Source: a virus (lineage: Duplodnaviria > Caudoviricetes). From it: a stretch of DNA of 39,960 bases. A program made the translations under genes and the position numbers. The notes under the pieces were generated by a model that saw only the letters and a program-made list of their open reading frames with translations, searched no databases and was not told the DNA's origin. The stretch covers positions 1 to 39,960 of the IMG/VR virus record IMGVR_UViG_3300036982_000507. One strand, 5' to 3'. Position 1 is the first letter of the stretch. The number at the start of each line of letters is the position of its first letter. Below, piece by piece: positions 9,684 to 26,000 of the stretch.

Positions 9684-9711
9684 TTGACCCACCACAATTG
9701 TGATGTAGAGT
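9684..9711 (+). promoter_or_regulatory. Sigma70-type early promoter with palindrome in spacer
   Basis: TTGACC-16nt-TAGAGT; the spacer contains CACAATTGTG. Confidence 0.65.
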
Positions 9712-9759: not shown

Positions 9760-9774
9760 GATCTCGAAAGGATC
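9760..9774 (+). promoter_or_regulatory. Start-associated RBS hairpin, copy 1
   Basis: GATCTCGAAAGGATC, 6 nt before ATG 9781. Confidence 0.8.
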
Positions 9775-9780
9775 CCCACC

Positions 9781-10047
9781 ATGACAACTCGCAAGACACT
9801 CAAAGCCGCACAAACCACGCTCCGATTGCAGATCGTTCACAGGACCGACGCGCTGCGTCAATTGAACTCAGGCACGGGGGCTACAAACCTCGATGTGGTC
9901 AACGACTTTCATGAAATCAACGGCCTGATTCAGGCTTTGCTGATAATCGATGGCGATTGGGCAGGCTTGTTTCTCGCAGCAGGACGAGCAAAAAATTACG
10001 CCATGACCAACGTCACCAACATCAACGCTCTCCGCGTGGTGTCCTGA
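9781..10047 (+). CDS. Hypothetical early protein (88 aa)
   Basis: ATG follows the conserved AAAGGA motif; the ORF ends just before a long hairpin. Confidence 0.75.
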   Translation: MTTRKTLKAAQTTLRLQIVHRTDALRQLNSGTGATNLDVVNDFHEINGLIQALLIIDGDWAGLFLAAGRAKNYAMTNVTNINALRVVS

Positions 10048-10056
10048 GTCTGCGGT

Positions 10057-10083
10057 GGGCAGGCGTGCGCCGCACGCTTGCCC
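10057..10083 (+). other. Intergenic GC stem-loop
   Basis: GGGCAGGCGTGC-GCC-GCACGCTTGCCC, 12 bp with one G-T pair, no U-tract. Confidence 0.7.
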
Positions 10084-10117
10084 TCCATGCACTCCGCATG
10101 ATGCATTCAATTCACCC

Positions 10118-10132
10118 GATCTCGAAAGGATC
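10118..10132 (+). promoter_or_regulatory. Start-associated RBS hairpin, copy 2
   Basis: GATCTCGAAAGGATC before ATG 10140. Confidence 0.8.
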
Positions 10133-10139
10133 CCCCACA

Positions 10140-11033
10140 ATGGCATTGCTCACCACCCCCGCCGCCCGTCTCAACGCTTTGACCAACCTGTTATCCGCCG
10201 AAGGCGACATCGCGCAACGCAGGTTCACAACCGTGAACGACCGCGCAGCGGCATTCGTCGCGGCCATGTTTGACCTTGGCCACACCGCAGAGTACTTCGA
10301 CTCCAACACCGTGCGCGTTGACGGGTTGACGATCTGTCGGGCAACCCGTTCTGACTATTGGTCGTACGACATCATCGCGTCCGACCGTGCAACGGTGCTT
10401 GCGGACCGCGATGCGAAGTGGGCCGCTGAGCGTCAGGCGGCAGAGCGTCGCCTCCAAGCACGCGACGCGGCCACTGAGGCGTGGTCCAACGAGGCGGGTG
10501 CGCCCAACGCACAACGCGCCGTCCGAAACGTGCTGCGCACGCTTGGGTGTGTGGTGTCGTTCGTGTGCGATTGCGACTGCCGCGTCACGTTCGACGACGG
10601 GTCCACCATCGACCTCGACATCGACCCCAACATCGACGGATTCGATTACGAGGGCAGCACCGACGACGCAGAATGTGTGCAGGGCTGGGCCGACGCAGCC
10701 GCTGCTGCGGCACACGCGTCGGCCGCGACGTTGCAGTCGGTCGACCCCGCGCTGTCCCGCCACCTAAACGACGCGGTGGCGACCTTTGGCGCATTGGTCA
10801 GAATCAAGGCGCTCGCCGACGACGCGTGTGCGTCGATCAGCGCGGCGATCATCGCCACGCAAACCGCTCGCACGCAATCGTGGAACGCGGCCGCGCTGAA
10901 CGCGAGCGCCCAGTGCGCGCTCATCACCTTGGAGTGCCTTGCGGCGGTCACGGAGTGTGCGGCCAAGCGTGCGGCGGGCGACGCCGCTGCCACGCAAGCA
11001 GCGGCCGCAAAGGACGCAGCGGCCAACGCCTGA
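10140..11033 (+). CDS. Hypothetical Ala-rich early protein (297 aa)
   Basis: Start MALLTTPAAR defined by the repeat RBS; GC3-rich codons. Confidence 0.8.
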   Translation: MALLTTPAARLNALTNLLSAEGDIAQRRFTTVNDRAAAFVAAMFDLGHTAEYFDSNTVRVDGLTICRATRSDYWSYDIIASDRATVLADRDAKWAAERQAAERRLQARDAATEAWSNEAGAPNAQRAVRNVLRTLGCVVSFVCDCDCRVTFDDGSTIDLDIDPNIDGFDYEGSTDDAECVQGWADAAAAAAHASAATLQSVDPALSRHLNDAVATFGALVRIKALADDACASISAAIIATQTARTQSWNAAALNASAQCALITLECLAAVTECAAKRAAGDAAATQAAAAKDAAANA

Positions 11034-11039
11034 TCATGT

Positions 11040-11074
11040 GGGCAGGTTGTGGACAAGTGCGCCACAACCTGCCC
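11040..11074 (+). other. Intergenic GC stem-loop
   Basis: GGGCAGGTTGTGG-9nt-CCACAACCTGCCC, perfect 13-bp stem, no U-tract. Confidence 0.75.
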
Positions 11075-11077
11075 CGC

Positions 11078-11106
11078 TTGACAGCCTCCTACAATTGTGG
11101 TAGAAC
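11078..11106 (+). promoter_or_regulatory. Sigma70-type early promoter
   Basis: TTGACA-17nt-TAGAAC with TGn extension; the spacer contains ACAATTGT. Confidence 0.65.
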
Positions 11107-11130
11107 ACCTTCTCAGCATTCATTCACCCC

Positions 11131-11147
11131 TGTTCTCGAAAGGAACA
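11131..11147 (+). promoter_or_regulatory. Start-associated RBS hairpin, copy 3
   Basis: TGTTCTCGAAAGGAACA before ATG 11153. Confidence 0.8.
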
Positions 11148-11152
11148 CCCCC

Positions 11153-11695
11153 ATGCAAAGCAACTGGCCAACCACGTTCGTGATCCACTCGTACCTGCTC
11201 CCCACCCCGCGCTACCTCGTCAGCGCCAAGGTTCCCACCAACGTGGTGTGGACGACCGACCGAAACAAGGCGGCGCAGTTCGCCGACTTTGACACCGCGC
11301 GCGCGCTGTCGTGGGAAATCGGCGGCGGCACCTCGCGCGTCGAAGAAATCGCCGCCGACGCCACAGACCGCGCGGCTCTGCTTGAGGCGCAATCGGTCAA
11401 GCACAGCGCCGAACTGCTTGAGCAGGCACACCTGCGCAGCGCCGACCTTGCCACGAAGGCAACTGAACTGCGCAACCGCATCGTGTCCGACACGCGGCTG
11501 CTTGGACGGCCGTACGCACACACCAAGATCACCAACGTCCGCATGACGGCGATGCACCTGCTCGGCCAAGTGTCCGCGTACGCCGTCCTGACGAGCGACG
11601 ACGACACCATCAACGACGCGTTCGCGCTGCGCGGGGACGTGGTGAAAGCACGCGACGCCGCGCTTGAGACATTCCGCACCAAGAAGTCCCGCTGA
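11153..11695 (+). CDS. Hypothetical early protein (180 aa)
   Basis: Start MQSNWPTTF defined by the repeat RBS; contains WTTDRNKAAQF, a motif common in small phage proteins. Confidence 0.8.
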   Translation: MQSNWPTTFVIHSYLLPTPRYLVSAKVPTNVVWTTDRNKAAQFADFDTARALSWEIGGGTSRVEEIAADATDRAALLEAQSVKHSAELLEQAHLRSADLATKATELRNRIVSDTRLLGRPYAHTKITNVRMTAMHLLGQVSAYAVLTSDDDTINDAFALRGDVVKARDAALETFRTKKSR

Positions 11696-11697
11696 GT

Positions 11698-11738
11698 GCG
11701 CGGTGGCGGGGCATGACACACACGCCCCGCCGCCGCGC
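11698..11738 (+). other. Intergenic GC stem-loop
   Basis: GCGCGGTGGCGGGGC-11nt-GCCCCGCCGCCGCGC, 15 bp with one G-T pair, directly after the stop codon. Confidence 0.75.
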
Positions 11739-11786
11739 CCAATAACCACGACTTGCACAATCTTGCAATAATTCGCACTAAAGTGG

Positions 11787-11814
11787 TTGACTCGTGTCGA
11801 TCACGCGCTACACT
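11787..11814 (+). promoter_or_regulatory. Sigma70-type early promoter
   Basis: TTGACT-16nt-TACACT; the spacer holds the inverted repeat CGTG-TCGAT-CACG. Confidence 0.7.
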
Positions 11815-11841
11815 CCCTGAGTCAACCCCGCCAGTTCACCC

Positions 11842-11856
11842 GTTCTCGAAAGGAAC
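11842..11856 (+). promoter_or_regulatory. Start-associated RBS hairpin, copy 4
   Basis: GTTCTCGAAAGGAAC before ATG 11864. Confidence 0.8.
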
Positions 11857-11863
11857 ACCCACC

Positions 11864-12802
11864 ATGACAACGTTCTTTCACTCGATCCTGCACAAGGGCA
11901 CCCGCGCCGTCAACACCATCTACCACATGAGCAATCGGTACGCGACGTTCAACGAGGCGGCTGACGAGGCGTACGGGGCCGTTCCCGCGGGCAGCACCAA
12001 CAACTGGTTGATTTGCGTGTACCACGTTGAAAACGGCGTCGGCCGCGAGGTCACTGCTGACGGCAGCGAGATCATCCCCGACGGGTGTGGCCGCGTGGTC
12101 GTTGTTCCGTGCACAACTGTGCACGGGTTCCACGCGCGGCTCCACGTCGCTGAGGAGAATGCGCACGCGGCAGCGCGTGCCGTGATCGACGCCACGATTC
12201 GGATGAACCTCGCGCCCGTCGGCGACCGCGACGCGACGGGCGACAAGGACAACGCCGAATGGTGCTTTCGGCAGCGGTTGCTGCTGCTTGGCGAGGCGGT
12301 GGTGCTTGCGGACAACGCGCGCAAGGCGGAGGCTACGGCGGCTGTGGTCGACCATGTCGGTGAGCCCACCGAATTGGTGGTCGACCCTTGCTGCTACTGC
12401 GGCGAGTCGACGGCGTGCGGCAACGGCAAGTTTGTGAACCGCATCCCGTCGGACGGTGGCGATGCCAACGGCCCCGACGTGTGGGCGTGCGAGGCGTGCA
12501 CCTCGCCCGACCTCGACGAACTGCTCGACCGTGCCGTACGCGAGCACGCCGCAGCCCTCGCGCTGTGGTCTGCGCGGACGTGGGAAGACGCAGGCATTGC
12601 GGCCGACACCCGCACGTTCGCGCGCGACGCGCTCGACCACCTGCTCCGCAACAACTACGAGTTTGCCGCACGTTGCGCCTGCAACGCGGTCAAATTGGAG
12701 GCTGAGTATTTCGGCGACATCGGTGTGTGGACAGCGTTCGCCGAATGCTGCATCGAGTGCCGCGACTTTACGGGCGTGACCGCACAGGAGGAAACACAAT
12801 GA
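11864..12802 (+). CDS. Hypothetical early protein with putative Zn finger (312 aa)
   Basis: CCYCGEST..GKFVNRIP...ACEAC gives a CxxC...CxxC module; start defined by the repeat RBS. Confidence 0.78.
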   Translation: MTTFFHSILHKGTRAVNTIYHMSNRYATFNEAADEAYGAVPAGSTNNWLICVYHVENGVGREVTADGSEIIPDGCGRVVVVPCTTVHGFHARLHVAEENAHAAARAVIDATIRMNLAPVGDRDATGDKDNAEWCFRQRLLLLGEAVVLADNARKAEATAAVVDHVGEPTELVVDPCCYCGESTACGNGKFVNRIPSDGGDANGPDVWACEACTSPDLDELLDRAVREHAAALALWSARTWEDAGIAADTRTFARDALDHLLRNNYEFAARCACNAVKLEAEYFGDIGVWTAFAECCIECRDFTGVTAQEETQ

Positions 12803-13167
12803 ACGCAAACGATCTTGCAACAGTTCTTGAGGATAATCAGAGACTACGCATCGAGAACGATCAACTCCGCAAGGACTTTGAGTTTGACCTTCGCGAGCGA
12901 AACGCAGCGATATGCGAGCGCGACGCGGCGATTCTTGAACGAGACAAGGCGCAAGTTGATCAGAGATTGATCGATGAACTTTGGGATCGCAGAACAGAGA
13001 TGACTGATATGAAGGAACAGATCAAACGCCTGCGCGAAGAGCGGGATGCTGCACGGCGGGAAGTGTGCCATTGGATGAACACAGATGAGAGCGGATGCAT
13101 CAAGCATGGATCCAAAGAAACCGCCATCACCCGTGGATGGGATTGCTTCAAGGAGGAAACACAATGA
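12786..13167 (+). repeat. 17-bp direct repeat AGGAGGAAACACAATGA flanking one gene
   Basis: Exact copies at 12786-12802 and 13151-13167. Confidence 0.9.
12799..13167 (+). CDS. Coiled-coil hypothetical protein (122 aa)
   Basis: AGGAGG RBS, ATGA overlap; heptad-like sequence ending ERDAARREVC...RGWDCF; visibly more AT-rich than its neighbours. Confidence 0.8.
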   Translation: MNANDLATVLEDNQRLRIENDQLRKDFEFDLRERNAAICERDAAILERDKAQVDQRLIDELWDRRTEMTDMKEQIKRLREERDAARREVCHWMNTDESGCIKHGSKETAITRGWDCFKEETQ

Positions 13168-13436
13168 GCGGTGCGTGTCTTTTCATCGCATGGCTACCCG
13201 TGTGCAAATGCTACGGCGCGTTCTTCGGCGACCCGCGCGCCAACCCGTCGACGTGGACGTTTGTGCTCGGCTACGCCACGGGCTTGTACGGCATCACCGC
13301 GTTGCGGGAGTTTGCCGCAGCGAATGGCGCGACGCTCACCCGTCTGCGCACGAAGCGAATCAGCCCCGTGTACCGATTGGATTTCGTGCCAGTGGTCACG
13401 GATTCCGTGACCACTGGCGAGGAGGAACAGCCATGA
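13164..13436 (+). CDS. Hypothetical protein (90 aa)
   Basis: AGGAGG RBS, ATGA overlaps at both ends. Confidence 0.7.
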   Translation: MSGACLFIAWLPVCKCYGAFFGDPRANPSTWTFVLGYATGLYGITALREFAAANGATLTRLRTKRISPVYRLDFVPVVTDSVTTGEEEQP

Positions 13437-13660
13437 CGCGGAGCACCGACGTCGACACGTGCAACGACCGAGCGCGTCGGGGTGTCGCCGACGCGCTCGA
13501 ACGCCACGGCCGCACGTGGTACTGGCTTGGCTGCGAGGTACAGCGCCGACGGCTTGGCAGCGCCTCGACCGTGCACCAGTGGCGTGCGGGCCACATCAGG
13601 GCCATCGGGTGCGGGCTGTACCTCGCCATCGTGGACCTGCTTGCTGCGGAGGCACGATGA
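13433..13660 (+). CDS. Putative Cro/XRE-like HTH protein (75 aa)
   Basis: ALERHGRTWYWLGCEV...SASTVHQWRAG resembles an XRE HTH; GAGGAGG RBS; ATGA overlaps. Confidence 0.55.
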   Translation: MTRSTDVDTCNDRARRGVADALERHGRTWYWLGCEVQRRRLGSASTVHQWRAGHIRAIGCGLYLAIVDLLAAEAR

Positions 13661-13893
13661 TAACGGTTGCCAACAGGATCAAGGCGTACGCCATCGGCAA
13701 CGCCGTCTACTGCGTCAACTGCACCAAACGCGCGTACGACCGTGGCGCGTACGTGCTCGACGGCCGCGACGTCCACGACCACCACGGCGTGGGGATGTGG
13801 GTGTCGGACACCCACGGCGACCCCGTGCACGCCGTGTTCACCATTCTGCACCCCACCAACTGCGACACCTGTCGCGAAAGCCTCACACCATGA
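13657..13893 (+). CDS. Small Zn-finger protein (78 aa)
   Basis: YCVNC...CDTC; GGAGG RBS; ATGA overlaps. Confidence 0.7.
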   Translation: MITVANRIKAYAIGNAVYCVNCTKRAYDRGAYVLDGRDVHDHHGVGMWVSDTHGDPVHAVFTILHPTNCDTCRESLTP

Positions 13894-13988
13894 CCGATGC
13901 CCCACCACCACCACCGTCAACACTCACCGACATCATCGGCACCCTCATCACGTTTGCGGGGCTCATCGCCCTTGTCACATTTCTCTGA
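13890..13988 (+). CDS. 32-aa membrane peptide
   Basis: MTDAPPPPPSTLTDIIGTLITFAGLIALVTFL; ATGA overlap; one hydrophobic segment. Confidence 0.5.
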   Translation: MTDAPPPPPSTLTDIIGTLITFAGLIALVTFL

Positions 13989-14006
13989 GATTCTTTGCGC
14001 AACCCC

Positions 14007-14034
14007 TTGCACATCACAAAAGTGATGTCATACT
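14007..14034 (+). promoter_or_regulatory. Sigma70-type promoter with perfect operator-like palindrome
   Basis: TTGCAC-16nt-CATACT; ACATCAC-AAAA-GTGATGT at 14011-14028. Confidence 0.7.
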
Positions 14035-14067
14035 ACCCCCATCGGCCGCGTGTGCGGCCACCCCCCC

Positions 14068-14082
14068 GTTCTCGAAAGGAAC
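14068..14082 (+). promoter_or_regulatory. Start-associated RBS hairpin, copy 5
   Basis: GTTCTCGAAAGGAAC before ATG 14091. Confidence 0.8.
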
Positions 14083-14090
14083 ACGACACA

Positions 14091-15083
14091 ATGGCTTCTG
14101 AAATTTACAGCAACGACCACATCGCACTCGCCAACACCGCCGCATGGCACGGGCTTGGCACCGTCATCCCCCACACCATGTCGCCGTTGCAGGCGCTTGA
14201 CGTGGCGAAACTCAACTGGACTGTCGACGAATCGTCGCTGATGTCGGCCACGTGGGTCGACGGCGTTGGCGCGGCCGACATCGTCGAGGTCACCACACAC
14301 AAGTCGCTGCGACGCAGCGACGACCTTACGGTGCTCAGCACCGTCGGGTGCGACTATTGTGTGTTGCAGAACGCGACCCTCGCATCGTTTGCGGCGGCGC
14401 TTAGCGCCACGGGCAACGTGCAGGTGGAAACGGCGGGCTCGCTGTTTGGCGGACGCAAGGTGTTCTTCTTGCTGCACGCGGGGTCGGTTGACGTCGCGTC
14501 CAAAGGCGACATCGTGGAGCAGTACATTTTGCTTGCGAACAGCCACGACGGCAGCATGGCGGTCACCGCGCTTGCGACGTCGGTACGCGTCGTGTGCAAC
14601 AACACCCTGACGCGTGCGACCAGTGGCAACGGCATCGCCACCCGTTGGCGCCACACCAGTGGGCTCACGCTGAAGGCCGACGACATCGCCAAGGCCATCG
14701 CGTCGTTCGGCATGGCCGCACAGGCAGAGGCCCGCGAGTTCGACGCACTGGCGGCGAAGTCGCTTACCAGTGAGGAAATCAGCGCGCTGTGGCTCGACGT
14801 GCTGCTCGCGCTTGACGGCCCCGTCGCGTTCAACCCTGCGACTGAGCAGCAGCAGCGCCGCAAAGACAAGTGTGTCGCCGCGCTCGCTCACATGTCGAGC
14901 ACGTTCGACGCGGAGGCGCCGTCGTACGGGGCCAACGCGTGGGTGGCGGCAAACGCGGCCACCAACTACATCCAGTTCGCACGCGGCAATCTCAAGGCTG
15001 ACGCGCGGATCAATTCCGATTTGTTCGGCGCGTACGCCGACGCGAAGCGGACTGTGATGGGCCTTGCCCTCGCGACCATCTGA
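14091..15083 (+). CDS. DUF932 / TIGR03299-family protein
   Basis: AWHGLG, LNWTV, ETAGSLFGGRKVF, LLANSHDGS and SVRVVCNNTL motifs. Confidence 0.9.
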   Translation: MASEIYSNDHIALANTAAWHGLGTVIPHTMSPLQALDVAKLNWTVDESSLMSATWVDGVGAADIVEVTTHKSLRRSDDLTVLSTVGCDYCVLQNATLASFAAALSATGNVQVETAGSLFGGRKVFFLLHAGSVDVASKGDIVEQYILLANSHDGSMAVTALATSVRVVCNNTLTRATSGNGIATRWRHTSGLTLKADDIAKAIASFGMAAQAEAREFDALAAKSLTSEEISALWLDVLLALDGPVAFNPATEQQQRRKDKCVAALAHMSSTFDAEAPSYGANAWVAANAATNYIQFARGNLKADARINSDLFGAYADAKRTVMGLALATI

Positions 15084-15094
15084 CCCAACGCCTG

Positions 15095-15134
15095 CCGCAG
15101 GGTAGGGGGTAGCACCCCACCCCTTCCCCTGCGG
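15095..15134 (+). other. Imperfect intergenic GC stem-loop
   Basis: CCGCAGGG...CCCTGCGG outer stem with inner GGGGT/ACCCC, just after the DUF932 stop. Confidence 0.55.
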
Positions 15135-15154
15135 TGGGCTGTTCCACCACACCA

Positions 15155-15442
15155 ATGAGCACCAAAATGACCACACCCGAATCGCTTCGCACCAAGCCCC
15201 GACCGCACGAAACCATCAGCATCGGGGGCCGCACCAAATGGAAGTTCGACGCCCTGTGCCTTGCGGGCCGACGGTCGCGGACCGCAACCATCGACGTGCT
15301 GATGGACTTCTTCCTAAAGCACAACCCCACCGTCCGCGACTTTGTCGAGGACCGTATGAACGACCCCAAGACACCCCAACCCAAACGAAAACCGTCGGAC
15401 GACGCTGACGCGTCGCCAAACGATGAAAGGACCACACCATGA
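15155..15442 (+). CDS. Putative ribbon-helix-helix DNA-binding protein
   Basis: ETISIGGRTKWKFDALCLAGRRSRTATIDVLMDFFL fits the beta-alpha-alpha RHH pattern; start could be 15155 or 15167. Confidence 0.6.
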   Translation: MSTKMTTPESLRTKPRPHETISIGGRTKWKFDALCLAGRRSRTATIDVLMDFFLKHNPTVRDFVEDRMNDPKTPQPKRKPSDDADASPNDERTTP

Positions 15443-16275
15443 GTGTACCACCCACAGGACTGCACCACCTTTCGGACGCTGATTATTTTTCGATTGATTT
15501 GCCATCGAGCAGCCAAACCAAGACGCTGCTGTCGGGGACCAACGCGCATCTCGCGTTCGACCGCGCAACACCCCGTGCCGACACCGACGCGTTTGCGCTT
15601 GGCGCGTACGTGCACGCGCTGCTGCTCGCACCCGAGTCGATCGAGTCAGGCTTCGTGAAGGCGGGGACCATCGACAAACGCACCACCGCAGGCAAGGCGG
15701 AGTACGCGGCGTTGGTGTCGCGTGCCGAGCGCAACAACGCGCGAATCATCACCGCTGAATTGGTGTGGCAGGCCGAGGAAATGGCCGCGAGTGTGCGCGC
15801 AAACCCCAGTGCACGCGCCTTGCTCGACGCGCTAACCGAGCGCGAGGTGACGGTCATCGGCGAGATTGCCGAGCAGCCTGCCAAGGGAAAGGTAGACGGG
15901 ATCATCCGCCTGCCCAACTTCAACGCGTGCGCGATCGTTGACCTCAAAACAACAGAGTCGGCGTCGGCGTTTGACTTCGCGAGCAGTGCCGCAAAGTTTG
16001 GCTACTACCATCAGGCGGCATTCTACCGCCGACTGGTCGAGCAAACCGTTGCCGTGGTCGACGACGTCATCGTCATCGCGGTTGAGAAGAAGGCCCCGTA
16101 CCTGTGCGCCGTGTACCGTATCCCCGTGGTCGCCATCGAAACCGCCAACGCAAAGATTGACGGGCTTGTCAAGCGTTGGTGGGACGTGCACGACGGCGAC
16201 GTGACAGGGTACCCCACCGACATCACCCCCCTGACACCACCGCGTTGGTGGATGTCTGCTGCCAACGATTCCTGA
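15439..16275 (+). CDS. RecE/exonuclease VIII-like PD-(D/E)xK nuclease (DUF3799-like)
   Basis: SSSQTK, LGAYVHALLL, KGKVDG, IVDLKTT, YYHQAAFY and AVEKKAPY motifs. Confidence 0.9.
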   Translation: MSVPPTGLHHLSDADYFSIDLPSSSQTKTLLSGTNAHLAFDRATPRADTDAFALGAYVHALLLAPESIESGFVKAGTIDKRTTAGKAEYAALVSRAERNNARIITAELVWQAEEMAASVRANPSARALLDALTEREVTVIGEIAEQPAKGKVDGIIRLPNFNACAIVDLKTTESASAFDFASSAAKFGYYHQAAFYRRLVEQTVAVVDDVIVIAVEKKAPYLCAVYRIPVVAIETANAKIDGLVKRWWDVHDGDVTGYPTDITPLTPPRWWMSAANDS

Positions 16276-16281
16276 AAGGAA
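16269..16281 (+). promoter_or_regulatory. Start-associated RBS hairpin, variant copy 6
   Basis: TTCCTGAAAGGAA overlapping the nuclease stop, before ATG 16288. Confidence 0.6.
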
Positions 16282-23000: not shown

Positions 23001-26000
23001 ATACGTTTCGCTGTCGGGGTTGAGGTTGGCGGAGGCGGCGTACGCGTTTGCCCCCTTTCCCTCGATTGTATTTTCGTACGTGATTCCGTCGTACCCAAGA
23101 TTGTTCAACATATTGCGCACATAATCACGGCTGAACGATTGGTTTCCGTTTGGGTGCTGGTCGTTGTTAGTCATTACCGATTCAAACCCTGACTGGTTGT
23201 ACCGCAAAAACACCTCTGCGCCTGCTTCGGGAATGCCAAGCCCCGTGTAAATTTCCATAAGCGCGTCGTCCATTGTTTTTGTCGAAATTATGTCCACCTG
23301 CTTCAGACCCTTGAGCACGTTGAACGCAGTCCACGACCCCATGTCCTCGACCTGTGCCACGCGGGTTGCGCGGGCGTAGACAGGAAACAGCACCGCTCCG
23401 TCGGGACTGTTGCGGAATGGTGAATTGTACACCCGCAAACGGCGGTCAAAGAAATCTGTCGCTTGGGCAAACGGGCCAAGGTGCAACCCAAACTGATCGG
23501 CGCTCATGTTCACGTCAAACTGGGTGTGGTGGCGGTACCCGCCATGAAACCAAATGTCGTTGGGGTGGATCCCGTTCAACGCGTTGCCGTTGTCAAAGTA
23601 CTTTGTAAACGCTGGGGTCGTTGGCTTTGAATACGGCGACGCGACCAGTTTCTTGTACAGGGTGGTCACCCCCCTACGCGTTTGCGCAGCCACGTTGACC
23701 AGACTGAACTCCTTTCTGTAGTCGCGTTCCTTCGCATCAATATTATTTGAAAATGGTGCAAGGGTTACAGCGTCTTCGATGACGCCTAAGTCGCGCAGAC
23801 TCATCCGCGTGCCGTGCGTCTCGGCCAACGTTACAATGTGCGCACGGCCTTTGGGCCCAACAATTGGGTCCTCGTACCACGGTGCAATGCGGGTGCCGTC
23901 GGCACGCTCGCTGTCCCGAGTGACCATGAAATCTGGCGGCTTCTCGCCACGCACAGGCTTGCCCTTTGCGTCGAGCGGCGGCGCCCAATTCATCTTGGCC
24001 CACTTGGTGGTAGAAAGCGCTTTGGTAAACAGACCAAAGTGGGCCGCGTCGAACATAAACGACTGGCCGTCGATGGTGTACTTGTGCGACGGCTTTAGCA
24101 CGCCGTCGGCGTCACGCGTGTACCCGTACTCGGCGCCAAAGGCATAGGTGTCGTATTGACCTTCTTTGGCCCACACCCCCACCATCTGCTGCTCACCCGT
24201 CGCAATCATTTGAAGCAGCCCGTCGAGAGTTTTGTGGCTGGCCTCTTGGTCCGACGCGCCCACCCAGTTCAACCAATGCTCGGCGCCGTGGTTAGCGTGC
24301 CGCGTCATCTCGGGCTGCGTCTTCAGCAGCGGGCCGAACACGCGGTTGGGATCAATGGCCCGCTCCACCGCTTCGTAGATGGCGATGCCACGCGCGCCGT
24401 TGAACAGCGTCGCCAGCCCCCCAACCTTCTTGGTTTCAACGCTAAACGTAACAGGCAACGCCGCAGGGTCTTCGGCCACGCGGCGTGCCGTTTCGGCCTT
24501 GGCCTCGGCCGTGGCCTCGGCGACCAACACGCTTGTGAGTTCGCGCTTTGCGGCGGCGTGGGCCAATTTGTCGCCGTTGAAATCGGGCAACCGCACCTCG
24601 CGGACCATCTCGTCGTCGATGACGACTTGCAGGGCCACCGTGTTGCCGTCGTACACGTTGACAAATCGTCCGTCGCGGTTCCAATGGTCCGCCACACGCA
24701 CGCGGTCGTACACCGACCCGTCCGTCTTTCCCGCAACAAGCGCCGAGAATGAAATCACCTTGTTGTCGATGCCAAGCGAGCCGCCAAGCCGCGTGAACAC
24801 GCGGCGGACCTTCTTTGCTGTCGCGGTTGGGCTGGCCATTGCGTTGTGCAAATGGATTACCCCTGTTTCCGTTACCCCGTCAATTGTTACCTGCTTGCCG
24901 ATGTTGGCAAGAAACGACTTGCCAAAGGCGTTGCCGTTGTGCGTGGCCCCCGCCCCTGGGGTGCCGTTTGCGCGCTTGACGTCGCCGTCTTTGTCCCGAA
25001 GCACTTCTCCGTCAACGCCAATCACGTCGTACCGCGTGCGCTCAAACATTGCGTCGACAAATCTCAGCCACTCACCCGTGTCTGCCTTGGTCCAGACGCC
25101 AGCCACGGCGCGGTCGACAAACGTTTGATACGTTTCGCCCTTTGAGTTTGTGAAATTGACCAGATCAATAAACAAACTTTCTTGCACGCGTGGCGACACG
25201 CCGCGCGACATGAATCCCCACATAGCAAGCGCGACGGTGTGGTGTGGCTTTACCTGTCCCGTGGCGTAGAACGCGCGCAACCGCTGCGCCATGTCGAGCC
25301 CGTGGACGGCGTCGTCTACCATGCCCTGACTCAGCCGCCCGCCGTTGGCGCGGAGCGCCATGTTCCTCTGCATCCCCGCGCTGTTGTTTGCGAGGTCTGA
25401 AATCAAGAAATCGGGCAACACGGGGATGTCGCGCGAGCCGTACAAATCGGCAAAGAATCGTTCCGTGGCGTCACGCGACGTAAACGCGTCGGGATGCCGT
25501 TCCAACAACGCGTCAACTTCTACAAGCGAACGTTCTGCGTTGGCCATGCTGGTCTTTGCGGGGATCTTGTACCCCCCCTCAAACTGCTGCATGTTGCCGC
25601 GATACCGCGTCAGGAACTGGCGGTCGAGTCCGTGCTTTCGGTTGACGGACCGACTGGCGAGTTCTGCGATGAGGAGGTCTTTGACTTGAGGCGCTTCGGC
25701 TTTGGCGAATTCGCCGAGCCACCCATCGAGATCGATGTCGAAGCCTTCGTCTTGGACGATTTCAACGATTGTGGCAGCAGGCTTGACCCAAAGATCCCAT
25801 GTCGTTTTGCCGACTCGGGATCGACTGCCAGCCCCCGTTGCGCGAGGATTTCGTTGAACTTTGCCCAAGACATCGAAGTCTCCAATCGTAGTGTAAGTGC
25901 TTTGAACCTGCGCAAACTCCACGGACATTCCGCGTGTTGCAGCAATTTGCGTTGCGTTGTCGACAAACGTTTGACGCGACGACGTTTGTCCGTCATAGTC

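What the first reader, a model, noticed from the sequence alone, without database searches (positions are those of the whole stretch)
9760..16281. Covarying RNA hairpin that sequesters the Shine-Dalgarno of six early genes
Seen: GATCTCGAAAGGATC (9760, 10118), GTTCTCGAAAGGAAC (11132, 11842, 14068) and TTCCTGAAAGGAA (16269), each 5-8 nt before an ATG and often preceded by TTCACCC. The A-T to T-A swap between GATC/GATC and GTTC/GAAC is compensatory, and copy 6 replaces a U-G pair with C-G, so structure rather than only sequence is kept. The GGA of the SD is paired in the stem. It can also fold as a C(GAAA)G tetraloop with a bulged U. Established analogies: mycobacteriophage start-associated sequences, boxB hairpins, translational operators. 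Inference: a coordinated translational switch or protein-binding RNA element for host-takeover genes.
Basis: partly seen in the sequence, partly recalled or inferred. Interest (0 to 1): 0.8.

Follow-up and report, generated by a model that had tools for sequence, protein, structure and literature searches.

The report
Ribosome-site mini-hairpin of swappable phage genes
An uncultured lake and sediment phage and its relatives fold the ribosome-binding signal of their swappable early genes into a tiny hairpin kept by shape, which likely insulates and fine-tunes translation of whatever gene is slotted behind it rather than switching it off.

Summary
The repeat is real: five exact copies plus a variant, 6-8 nt before ATG. 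Relatives confirm that pairing is conserved: at the most variable pair 40 of 58 distinct sites pair against 17 expected, with all four Watson-Crick types. The same SD core in 121 bacterial sites shows no excess. The shape is a 2-6 bp stem, a free bulge and C(GAAA)G. 'Sequesters' is overstated. GAAA, complementary to the 16S 3' tip, stays in the loop; AUG is outside the stem; predicted stability is -1.5 to -6.5 kcal/mol against about -9.7 for the SD duplex. Copy 6 overlaps a stop codon and is unpaired in relatives. The hairpin ends a PeSL-like cassette (stop, GC hairpin, optional sigma-70 promoter, RBS) in front of orphan genes, and close strains swap genes at it. Best reading (0.45): a protein-independent insulator and mild rheostat of initiation. 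Rivals: phage-protein operator (0.25), shield against host CsrA (0.12). No Rfam match. Function is untested.

The parts
9760..9774 (+). SD mini-hairpin copy 1 (GATC-U-C(GAAA)G-GAUC), before orphan ORF 9781-10047
10118..10132 (+). copy 2, before orphan ORF 10140-11033; gene-swap breakpoint in related strains
   Evidence: joints 10133>11868, 11729>10085, 11712>10085 and loose ends at 10132
11131..11147 (+). copy 3 (6-bp form), before orphan ORF 11153-11695
11842..11856 (+). copy 4, before orphan ORF 11864-12802; followed by a different ORF in one related strain
   Evidence: loose end at 11854 in run X4
14068..14082 (+). copy 5, before the DUF932 gene 14091-15083; six different stems at this orthologous site across relatives
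16269..16281 (+). copy 6, a doubtful member: overlaps the exonuclease stop codon, and orthologous sites are unpaired
15425..15431 (+). GAAAGGA Shine-Dalgarno without hairpin, inside the upstream ORF end (internal control)
9684..9711 (+). sigma-70-like promoter TTGACC-16-TAGAGT with the palindrome CACAATTGTG (9693-9702) in the spacer
11078..11106 (+). probable promoter (TTGACA, weak -10) with a TACAATTGTG palindrome; not called by the scanner
   Evidence: read from sequence; inference
11787..11814 (+). sigma-70-like promoter TTGACT-16-TACACT
14007..14036 (+). probable promoter with CACAAAAGTG (14015-14024); the orthologous site in relatives scores as a promoter
   Evidence: inference
10057..10083 (+). 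GC-rich hairpin after the stop codon (terminator/attenuator or processing site)
11040..11074 (+). GC-rich hairpin after the stop codon
11698..11738 (+). GC-rich hairpin after the stop codon
15090..15139 (+). GC-rich hairpin after the DUF932 gene
15167..15442 (+). conserved small ORF, probably ribbon-helix-helix; candidate binder of the promoter palindrome
   Evidence: 65-75% identity in near relatives; feature look-alike 0.94 to an RHH cluster, a lead only; no Pfam or PHROG hit

Best explanation
The element is a shape-conserved mini-hairpin built out of the Shine-Dalgarno sequence at the end of a swappable early-gene cassette, and it likely works without any protein as an insulator and mild rheostat of translation. 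Shown: the stem covaries, it sits in cassettes in front of unrelated orphan genes, and related strains exchange genes at it. Predicted: the loop holds GAAA, complementary to the extreme 3' end of 16S rRNA, open, and the stem keeps GGA from pairing with distant C-runs or with the coding sequence. Inferred: the 16S tail would nucleate on the GAAA loop and peel the stem (duplex about -9.7 against -1.5 to -6.5 kcal/mol). Each newly slotted gene would then get a dependable start site whose strength is trimmed by stem length.
For: Covariation: 40 of 58 distinct clade sites pair at the third position against 17.0 in shuffles (P<1e-4; U-A 18, C-G 9, A-U 8, G-C 5). Shuffling within genomes gives 121 paired cells against a mean of 99 and a maximum of 116 in 20,000 shuffles. 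On 63 aligned sites there are 51 double-change cells against 22, and slid registers pair less (70% against 25-49% of cells). The orthologous DUF932 site has 6 different stems in 15 loci. The base before GAAAGGA is C in 82 of 92 contexts, although the 16S tail CCUCCUUUCUA (14 of 14 true 16S ends among 30 loci) would pair with A, so shape outweighs an extra SD pair. Opening GAAA costs 0.05 kcal/mol against 1.06 with a shuffled 5' arm, lower in 86 of 92 contexts. Non-local pairing of GGA has median 0.04 (49 sites with at least 4 bp), 0.30 (28 weak sites) and 0.64 (13 downstream sites). Stability is capped at -6.5 and stems at 6 bp, close to the -6 kcal/mol limit reported for E. coli (PMC3155529). 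Bulge identity is free and loops run 6-8 nt. Sister lineages use open A/C leaders in the same cassettes. Gene swaps fall at the copies.
Against: At equilibrium the hairpin makes the whole RBS harder to open, not easier: 8.3 against 6.8 and 6.5 kcal/mol, and 4.3 against 3.5 for shuffled arms. Plain A/C leaders do the job in sister lineages, so why outer pairs are selected is only partly explained. RNAalifold finds no consensus structure on the 63-site alignment. The fourth and fifth pairs are only weakly supported (P 0.03), and the second pair is nearly invariant (P 0.054). Sites are related by descent and by within-genome homogenisation, so counts are not independent events. All energies are model values at 37 C. 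No expression data exist. The constant C(GAAA)G-plus-bulge geometry would also suit a protein.
Confidence: 0.45

Rival explanations
1. A translational operator: a phage protein binds the hairpin and clamps it shut, turning the early genes down together (like Aca2, or T4 RegA and MS2 coat protein from recall).
For: Many copies before co-expressed early genes; fixed tetraloop-plus-bulge geometry; C kept at the cost of an SD pair. The hairpin already raises the opening cost. Precedent: Aca2 represses by binding 5' UTR hairpins, and an RHH protein, Aca14, regulates anti-defence operons (PMC13551039, passages). A conserved RHH-like gene and promoter palindromes are present. One distant cassette gene is the anti-restriction factor ArdC (L467).
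Against: No base outside the SD is invariant, the bulge is A, C or U, and loops vary. 27 of 90 contexts have at most 2 outer pairs. L128-L130 keep the RHH-like gene (55%) and the cassettes but have no hairpin. No RNA-binding family was found among 84 ORFs scanned with Pfam or 36 with PHROGs.
Confidence: 0.25
2. A shield against host CsrA: the stem hides the GGA that CsrA needs single-stranded, while GAAA stays free for the ribosome.
For: The paired part of the SD is exactly G-G-A (P unpaired 0.15, 0.08, 0.36). CsrA binds single-stranded or looped GGA near the SD (PMC6546359, PMC13443453, passages). CsrA is in 56 of 61 genomes of the likely host class.
Against: The stem is kept with a compensatory C-G where the SD reads GGG and no GGA exists (L147/L149/L396, L131, L467). 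Downstream genes and sister lineages leave AAGGA unpaired. The host is only inferred, and the targets of its CsrA are unknown.
Confidence: 0.12
3. An mRNA-stability or processing element that protects the 5' end of short early messages or of pieces cut at the upstream GC hairpins (as T7 early RNA is cut by RNase III, from recall).
For: It lies close to predicted start sites or just behind long intergenic hairpins, some with a fixed internal loop, and is absent from coupled downstream genes.
Against: It is far weaker than the leader hairpins beside it, and it would be melted on every initiation.
Confidence: 0.1
4. A by-product: copies spread by recombination, and short palindromes are perfected by template switching, with no selection on RNA shape.
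For: Genomes have their own sequence flavours, swaps occur at the repeats, and many copies are unpaired.
Against: The same core in 121 bacterial sites shows no excess pairing (36 against 31.5, P 0.19). Downstream sites in the same phages pair at chance. All four pair types occur, and the same geometry recurs with other sequences in phages with 47-48% terminase identity (L466, L467).
Confidence: 0.08

Closest known systems
PeSL cassettes of T4-type phages (PMC2839356, passages; PMC4122927, first third of the text)
   Same: Order of stop codon, sigma-70 promoter, polyG/polyC stem-loop, SD and start codon; placed among orphan genes of hypervariable regions; crossovers between copies swap genes, some between the SD and the -10 box.
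   Different: The passages read describe no covarying hairpin made from the SD itself. Here many cassettes lack a promoter, and the phage is a 40-kb genome unrelated to T4.
Start-associated sequences (SAS/ESAS) of Cluster K mycobacteriophages (PMC3203893, passages)
   Same: Repeated word at the RBS of non-essential genes, with conserved positions that do not pair with 16S rRNA; function unknown.
   Different: SAS is a fixed 13-mer (GGGATAGGAGCCC) with AGGAG at its centre. This element varies in sequence, is conserved by pairing, and uses GAAAGGA.
Aca2 and Aca1 5' UTR RNA motifs (PMC13551039, passages)
   Same: Covarying hairpin in early-gene leaders, next to a promoter palindrome and a small DNA-binding regulator.
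   Different: The Aca1 motif is about 20 nt, starts at the transcription start and ends about 20 nt before the start codon, and binding is shown. Here the hairpin contains the SD and no binding partner is known.
CsrA/RsmA binding sites (PMC13443453, PMC6546359, passages)
   Same: Short hairpin with GGA at the SD.
   Different: CsrA sites show GGA in the loop; here GGA is in the stem.
Lambda boxB and MS2-type operators (recalled, no call)
   Same: Short stem with a GNRA-like loop or a single bulge.
   Different: boxB acts in antitermination away from the RBS. MS2-type operators need a specific bulged purine and cover the start codon. Here the bulge is free and AUG is outside.

Membership tests
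PeSL-type cassette | sigma-70-like promoter plus GC-rich stem-loop between a stop codon and the next SD/start | tested here: met
   a promoter is present in only part of the cassettes
PeSL-type cassette | flanks orphan genes in a hypervariable region | tested here: met
   5 of the 8 window ORFs between the first copy and DUF932 have no match in 30 related loci, and two more have one partial match each; few Pfam hits among 84 ORFs
PeSL-type cassette | gene gain, loss or exchange with breakpoints in the element | tested here: met
   contig joints at 10133>11868 (runs X4, X6, one study), 11729>10085 (X5), 11712>10085 (X2), and a different ORF behind 11854 (X4); likeness thresholds 82-85%, so these are related strains
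PeSL-type cassette | measured promoter and terminator activity; mini-circles | not testable with these tools
   no RNA data; contigs only
Cluster K SAS | 13-bp consensus GGGATAGGAGCCC | tested here: not met
   consensus here is nnnTC-H-C-GAAAGGA-nn
Cluster K SAS | repeat at the RBS with conserved bases beyond 16S pairing | tested here: met
   C at -1 and -3 and T at -4 in 82, 85 and 72 of 92 contexts
Aca-type RNA operator | covarying hairpin in the 5' UTR | tested here: met
   R-scape itself was not available
Aca-type RNA operator | co-encoded HTH/RHH regulator that binds the RNA | tested here: inconclusive
   RHH-like ORF is a lead only; it is also present in hairpin-less relatives; binding untested
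CsrA binding site | GGA single-stranded or in the loop | tested here: not met
   GGA predicted paired
RBS-sequestering OFF structure | stability beyond about -6 kcal/mol, covering SD and start codon | tested here: not met
   median -3.6, minimum -6.5 (23 of 104 sites between -6.0 and -6.5); stems at most 6 bp, AUG outside
Any Rfam family | score at gathering threshold | tested here: not met
   0 hits in the window and in 8 related loci; none of 8 weak hits lies on the motif alone

The most novel reading that the evidence does not exclude
A split-function ribosome site: the phage folds its Shine-Dalgarno so that GAAA is offered to the 16S tail as a toehold while GGA is hidden from the host repressor CsrA. 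That would be a purely cis-acting RNA counter-measure that travels with every newly acquired early gene.
Probability: 0.12. Interest if true: 0.8.

Novelty: new variant of a known kind. Interest (0 to 1): 0.5.

Why it matters
What repeated start-associated sequences of phages do has been open since the Cluster K SAS were described. Here the repeat varies freely in sequence while keeping its pairing, and natural variants span no stem to 6 bp at otherwise equal sites. That is a ready-made allelic series for asking whether such elements act through shape alone or through a protein. It also extends PeSL-type shuffling to small uncultured phages, probably of Phycisphaerae, and suggests how a cassette can give dependable translation to any gene dropped behind it in a GC-rich genome.

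Tried and rejected
DNA operator reading: rejected, because all four pair types occur at one position and DNA hairpins are negligible (-0.1 to -2.2 kcal/mol). Host-wide RBS shape: rejected; no excess pairing in 121 bacterial sites, and only 2-8 core matches per genome in 5 planctomycete genomes. Random viral sites show a modest excess at one pair only (40 of 106 against 26; two of them from clade member L363; 43 of 120 against 31.5). Longer 16S tail as the reason for the C at -1: rejected. Sarcin-ricin-loop mimic (recalled likeness): dropped, since the 5' strand is unlike it and Watson-Crick covarying. An antisense copy of the SD: one match only, inside the large gene at 23710. RNAalifold gave no structure. 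No covariance model was built, since 22 columns carry too little information. The DUF932 profile found nothing in genome contigs. No cultured relative: best terminase matches are 31% over half the length. No RNA holder listed. No earlier notes on this genome or look-alike stretches. Literature searches listed no paper describing this motif; the library lacks most subscription journals and no supplements were read.
Full report
Setting. The window is a whole 39,960-nt phage record. Terminase, portal and major capsid genes lie on the minus strand. A plus-strand block from 9781 carries orphan ORFs, DUF932, exonuclease VIII, a primosomal protein and RusA. No cultured phage is close. Terminase relatives occur in 7 of 301 genomes of the class of G001, whose record is titled Phycisphaerales. 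They occur in 0 of 251 genomes in each of three control classes, centred on an alphaproteobacterium, a Burkholderiaceae genome and an actinomycete. Those matches are distant (best 267 bits), so a Phycisphaerae host is an inference.

Observation. Five exact copies of GWTCTCGAAAGGAWC stand on the plus strand, against 0.17 expected, and the variant at 16269 is there. All lie 6-8 nt before an ATG. GAAAGGA forms a 7-bp duplex of -9.6 to -9.8 kcal/mol with the 16S tail; the isolated hairpins are -2.1 to -2.9. Copy 6 includes the exonuclease stop codon, and the matching sites in relatives are unpaired. A seventh GAAAGGA, at 15425, has no stem.

Relatives. I collected related loci through DUF932 and terminase and picked sites blind to structure: GAAAGG followed by a start codon and an open frame. 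GAAAGG is therefore invariant by construction, and lineages with a shorter SD drop out. From 22 near sources, keeping one locus per duplicated contig, I kept 104 sites between the small terminase and DUF932. I set aside 25 by hand: 19 before the exonuclease or the gene after it, used as a control, and 6 elsewhere. The 104 collapse to 58 distinct sites. The third pair is Watson-Crick in 40 of 58 against 17.0 shuffled, with all four types; the fourth and fifth pairs are weaker (25 against 20.3 and 19 against 12.6, P about 0.03); the second is nearly constant. Shuffling only within nine genomes gives 121 paired cells against a mean of 99 and a maximum of 116. The 10 distinct downstream sites pair at chance. 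An alignment of these 58 plus 5 sites from two distant phages (7 other distant sites left out) gives 51 double-change cells against 22, and slid registers pair less. RNAalifold, however, returns no consensus fold, because many copies have only two or three pairs. One orthologous position, the DUF932 leader, shows six different stems in 15 loci. Controls with the same core outside the clade show no excess in 121 bacterial sites and a small one in 106 viral sites. These counts are sequences, not independent events.

Anatomy. The outer stem starts at the second G of GGA and has 0-6 pairs. Inside it lie a free base (A, C or U, rarely G), a pyrimidine that can close C(GAAA)G, and the loop. Loops of 6-8 nt occur. 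The base before GAAAGGA is C in 82 of 92 contexts, though the 16S tail CCUCCUUUCUA, seen in 14 of 14 true 16S ends among 30 loci, would pair with A. Predicted openness is 0.71-0.94 for GAAA and 0.15, 0.08 and 0.36 for GGA. Stability has median -3.6 and never passes -6.5. In E. coli an SD inside a -5.2 kcal/mol structure gave full expression, and -6 is cited as the limit (PMC3155529, passages).

Context. Each hairpin ends a cassette: stop codon, long GC-rich hairpin, optional sigma-70-like promoter with a CACA-TGTG palindrome, C-rich run, SD hairpin, C-rich spacer, ATG. The genes between cassettes are mostly unrelated between phages and mostly without Pfam families. Contigs of related strains join the copy-2 cassette directly to the fourth gene (X4, X6; one study), place the copy-2 leader behind the third gene (X2, X5), and put other ORFs behind copies 2 and 4. 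These were laid at 82-85% likeness and come from mixed samples. This matches the PeSL description (PMC2839356, passages; PMC4122927, first third). Sister lineages keep such cassettes but use AAGGA in an A/C run without a stem.

Mechanism. In folding models the stem does two things. It keeps GAAA open (0.05 against 1.06 kcal/mol with shuffled arms), and it keeps GGA from distant partners (0.04 against 0.30 at weak sites and 0.64 at downstream sites). It also raises the cost of opening the whole site by about 1.5 kcal/mol, so it damps rather than boosts. The window's five sites still open more easily (5.3-7.7) than most other starts tested in the genome. I therefore read it as a protein-independent insulator and rheostat that the 16S tail enters through the loop (0.45). 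Every step after the covariation and the swaps is predicted or inferred. A protein-bound operator (0.25) has a precedent in Aca2 (PMC13551039, passages) and a candidate in the RHH-like ORF (lead only). Against it, no base outside the SD is fixed, and hairpin-less relatives keep that gene. A CsrA shield (0.12) fits the paired GGA and CsrA in 56 of 61 genomes of the likely host class, but the stem persists where GGA has become GGG. Stability (0.10) and neutral origin (0.08) follow.

Novelty. There is no Rfam match in the window or in 8 related loci, and eight literature searches listed no description. The cassette works like a PeSL and the repeat sits like a SAS, but it fails the SAS consensus and the CsrA-site test. 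Earlier notes of this scan report other small RBS-linked hairpins in other phages; I did not test them and do not count them as support. Verdict: a real, undescribed structured RBS element, a new variant of a known kind, interest 0.5.

Noticed in passing
L407:51-3400, L124:7600-7660, L122:2400-2465, L389:7030-7110: Long intergenic hairpins share a GATC-CAA-[stem]-CT-GATC frame with a fixed 3x2 internal loop and variable polyC/polyG tops; possible RNase III-type processing sites. No Rfam hit in L407, L124 or L389; L122 was not scanned.
   Followed up: partly
L402, L392, L126, L122, L467 intergenic regions: A second hairpin family has the loop TTGAC(A), identical to a -35 box, between C and G runs and is followed by CTTC/TTTC.
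   Followed up: no
L122, L126, L150, L389, L392, L402 early arrays: SD-stem strength rises along the array from the first gene (about -1.5; -3.6 in L402) to later genes (about -6), rho -0.7 to -0.9. The trend is flat in the window, weak in L396 and reversed in L124 and L407. It may reflect shared ancestry.
   Followed up: partly
window:12786-12801 and 13137-13167: A second RBS repeat, AGGAGGAAACACAATG, flanks ORF 12799-13167; strains in runs X2 and X4 skip that ORF between the repeats. The 13137-13167 stretch has many loose ends in four runs and recurs in L124, L132 and L137.
   Followed up: partly
window:9693-9702, 11090-11099, 14015-14024; 15167-15442: Operator-like palindrome CACA(A/T)(A/T)(T/A)GTG in or beside early promoters across the clade, with a conserved RHH-like ORF as candidate repressor.
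   Followed up: partly
L456:7489-8340 and L459:706 (minus strand): A different layout: a GCCCC-loop-GGGGC hairpin directly upstream ties up the C-run and leaves GAAAGGA free.
   Followed up: no
L467:3378-4319 (minus strand): An ArdC-type anti-restriction gene sits behind one of the hairpins in a distant relative.
   Followed up: no
window:20043-31853 (minus strand): A single 3,936-aa ORF, 40-58% identical over its C-terminal part to relatives; not annotated here.
   Followed up: no
window:16288-17085: Conserved ORF after exonuclease VIII with no Pfam or PHROG hit; by position and recalled likeness a single-strand annealing recombinase, which could drive the cassette swaps.
   Followed up: no
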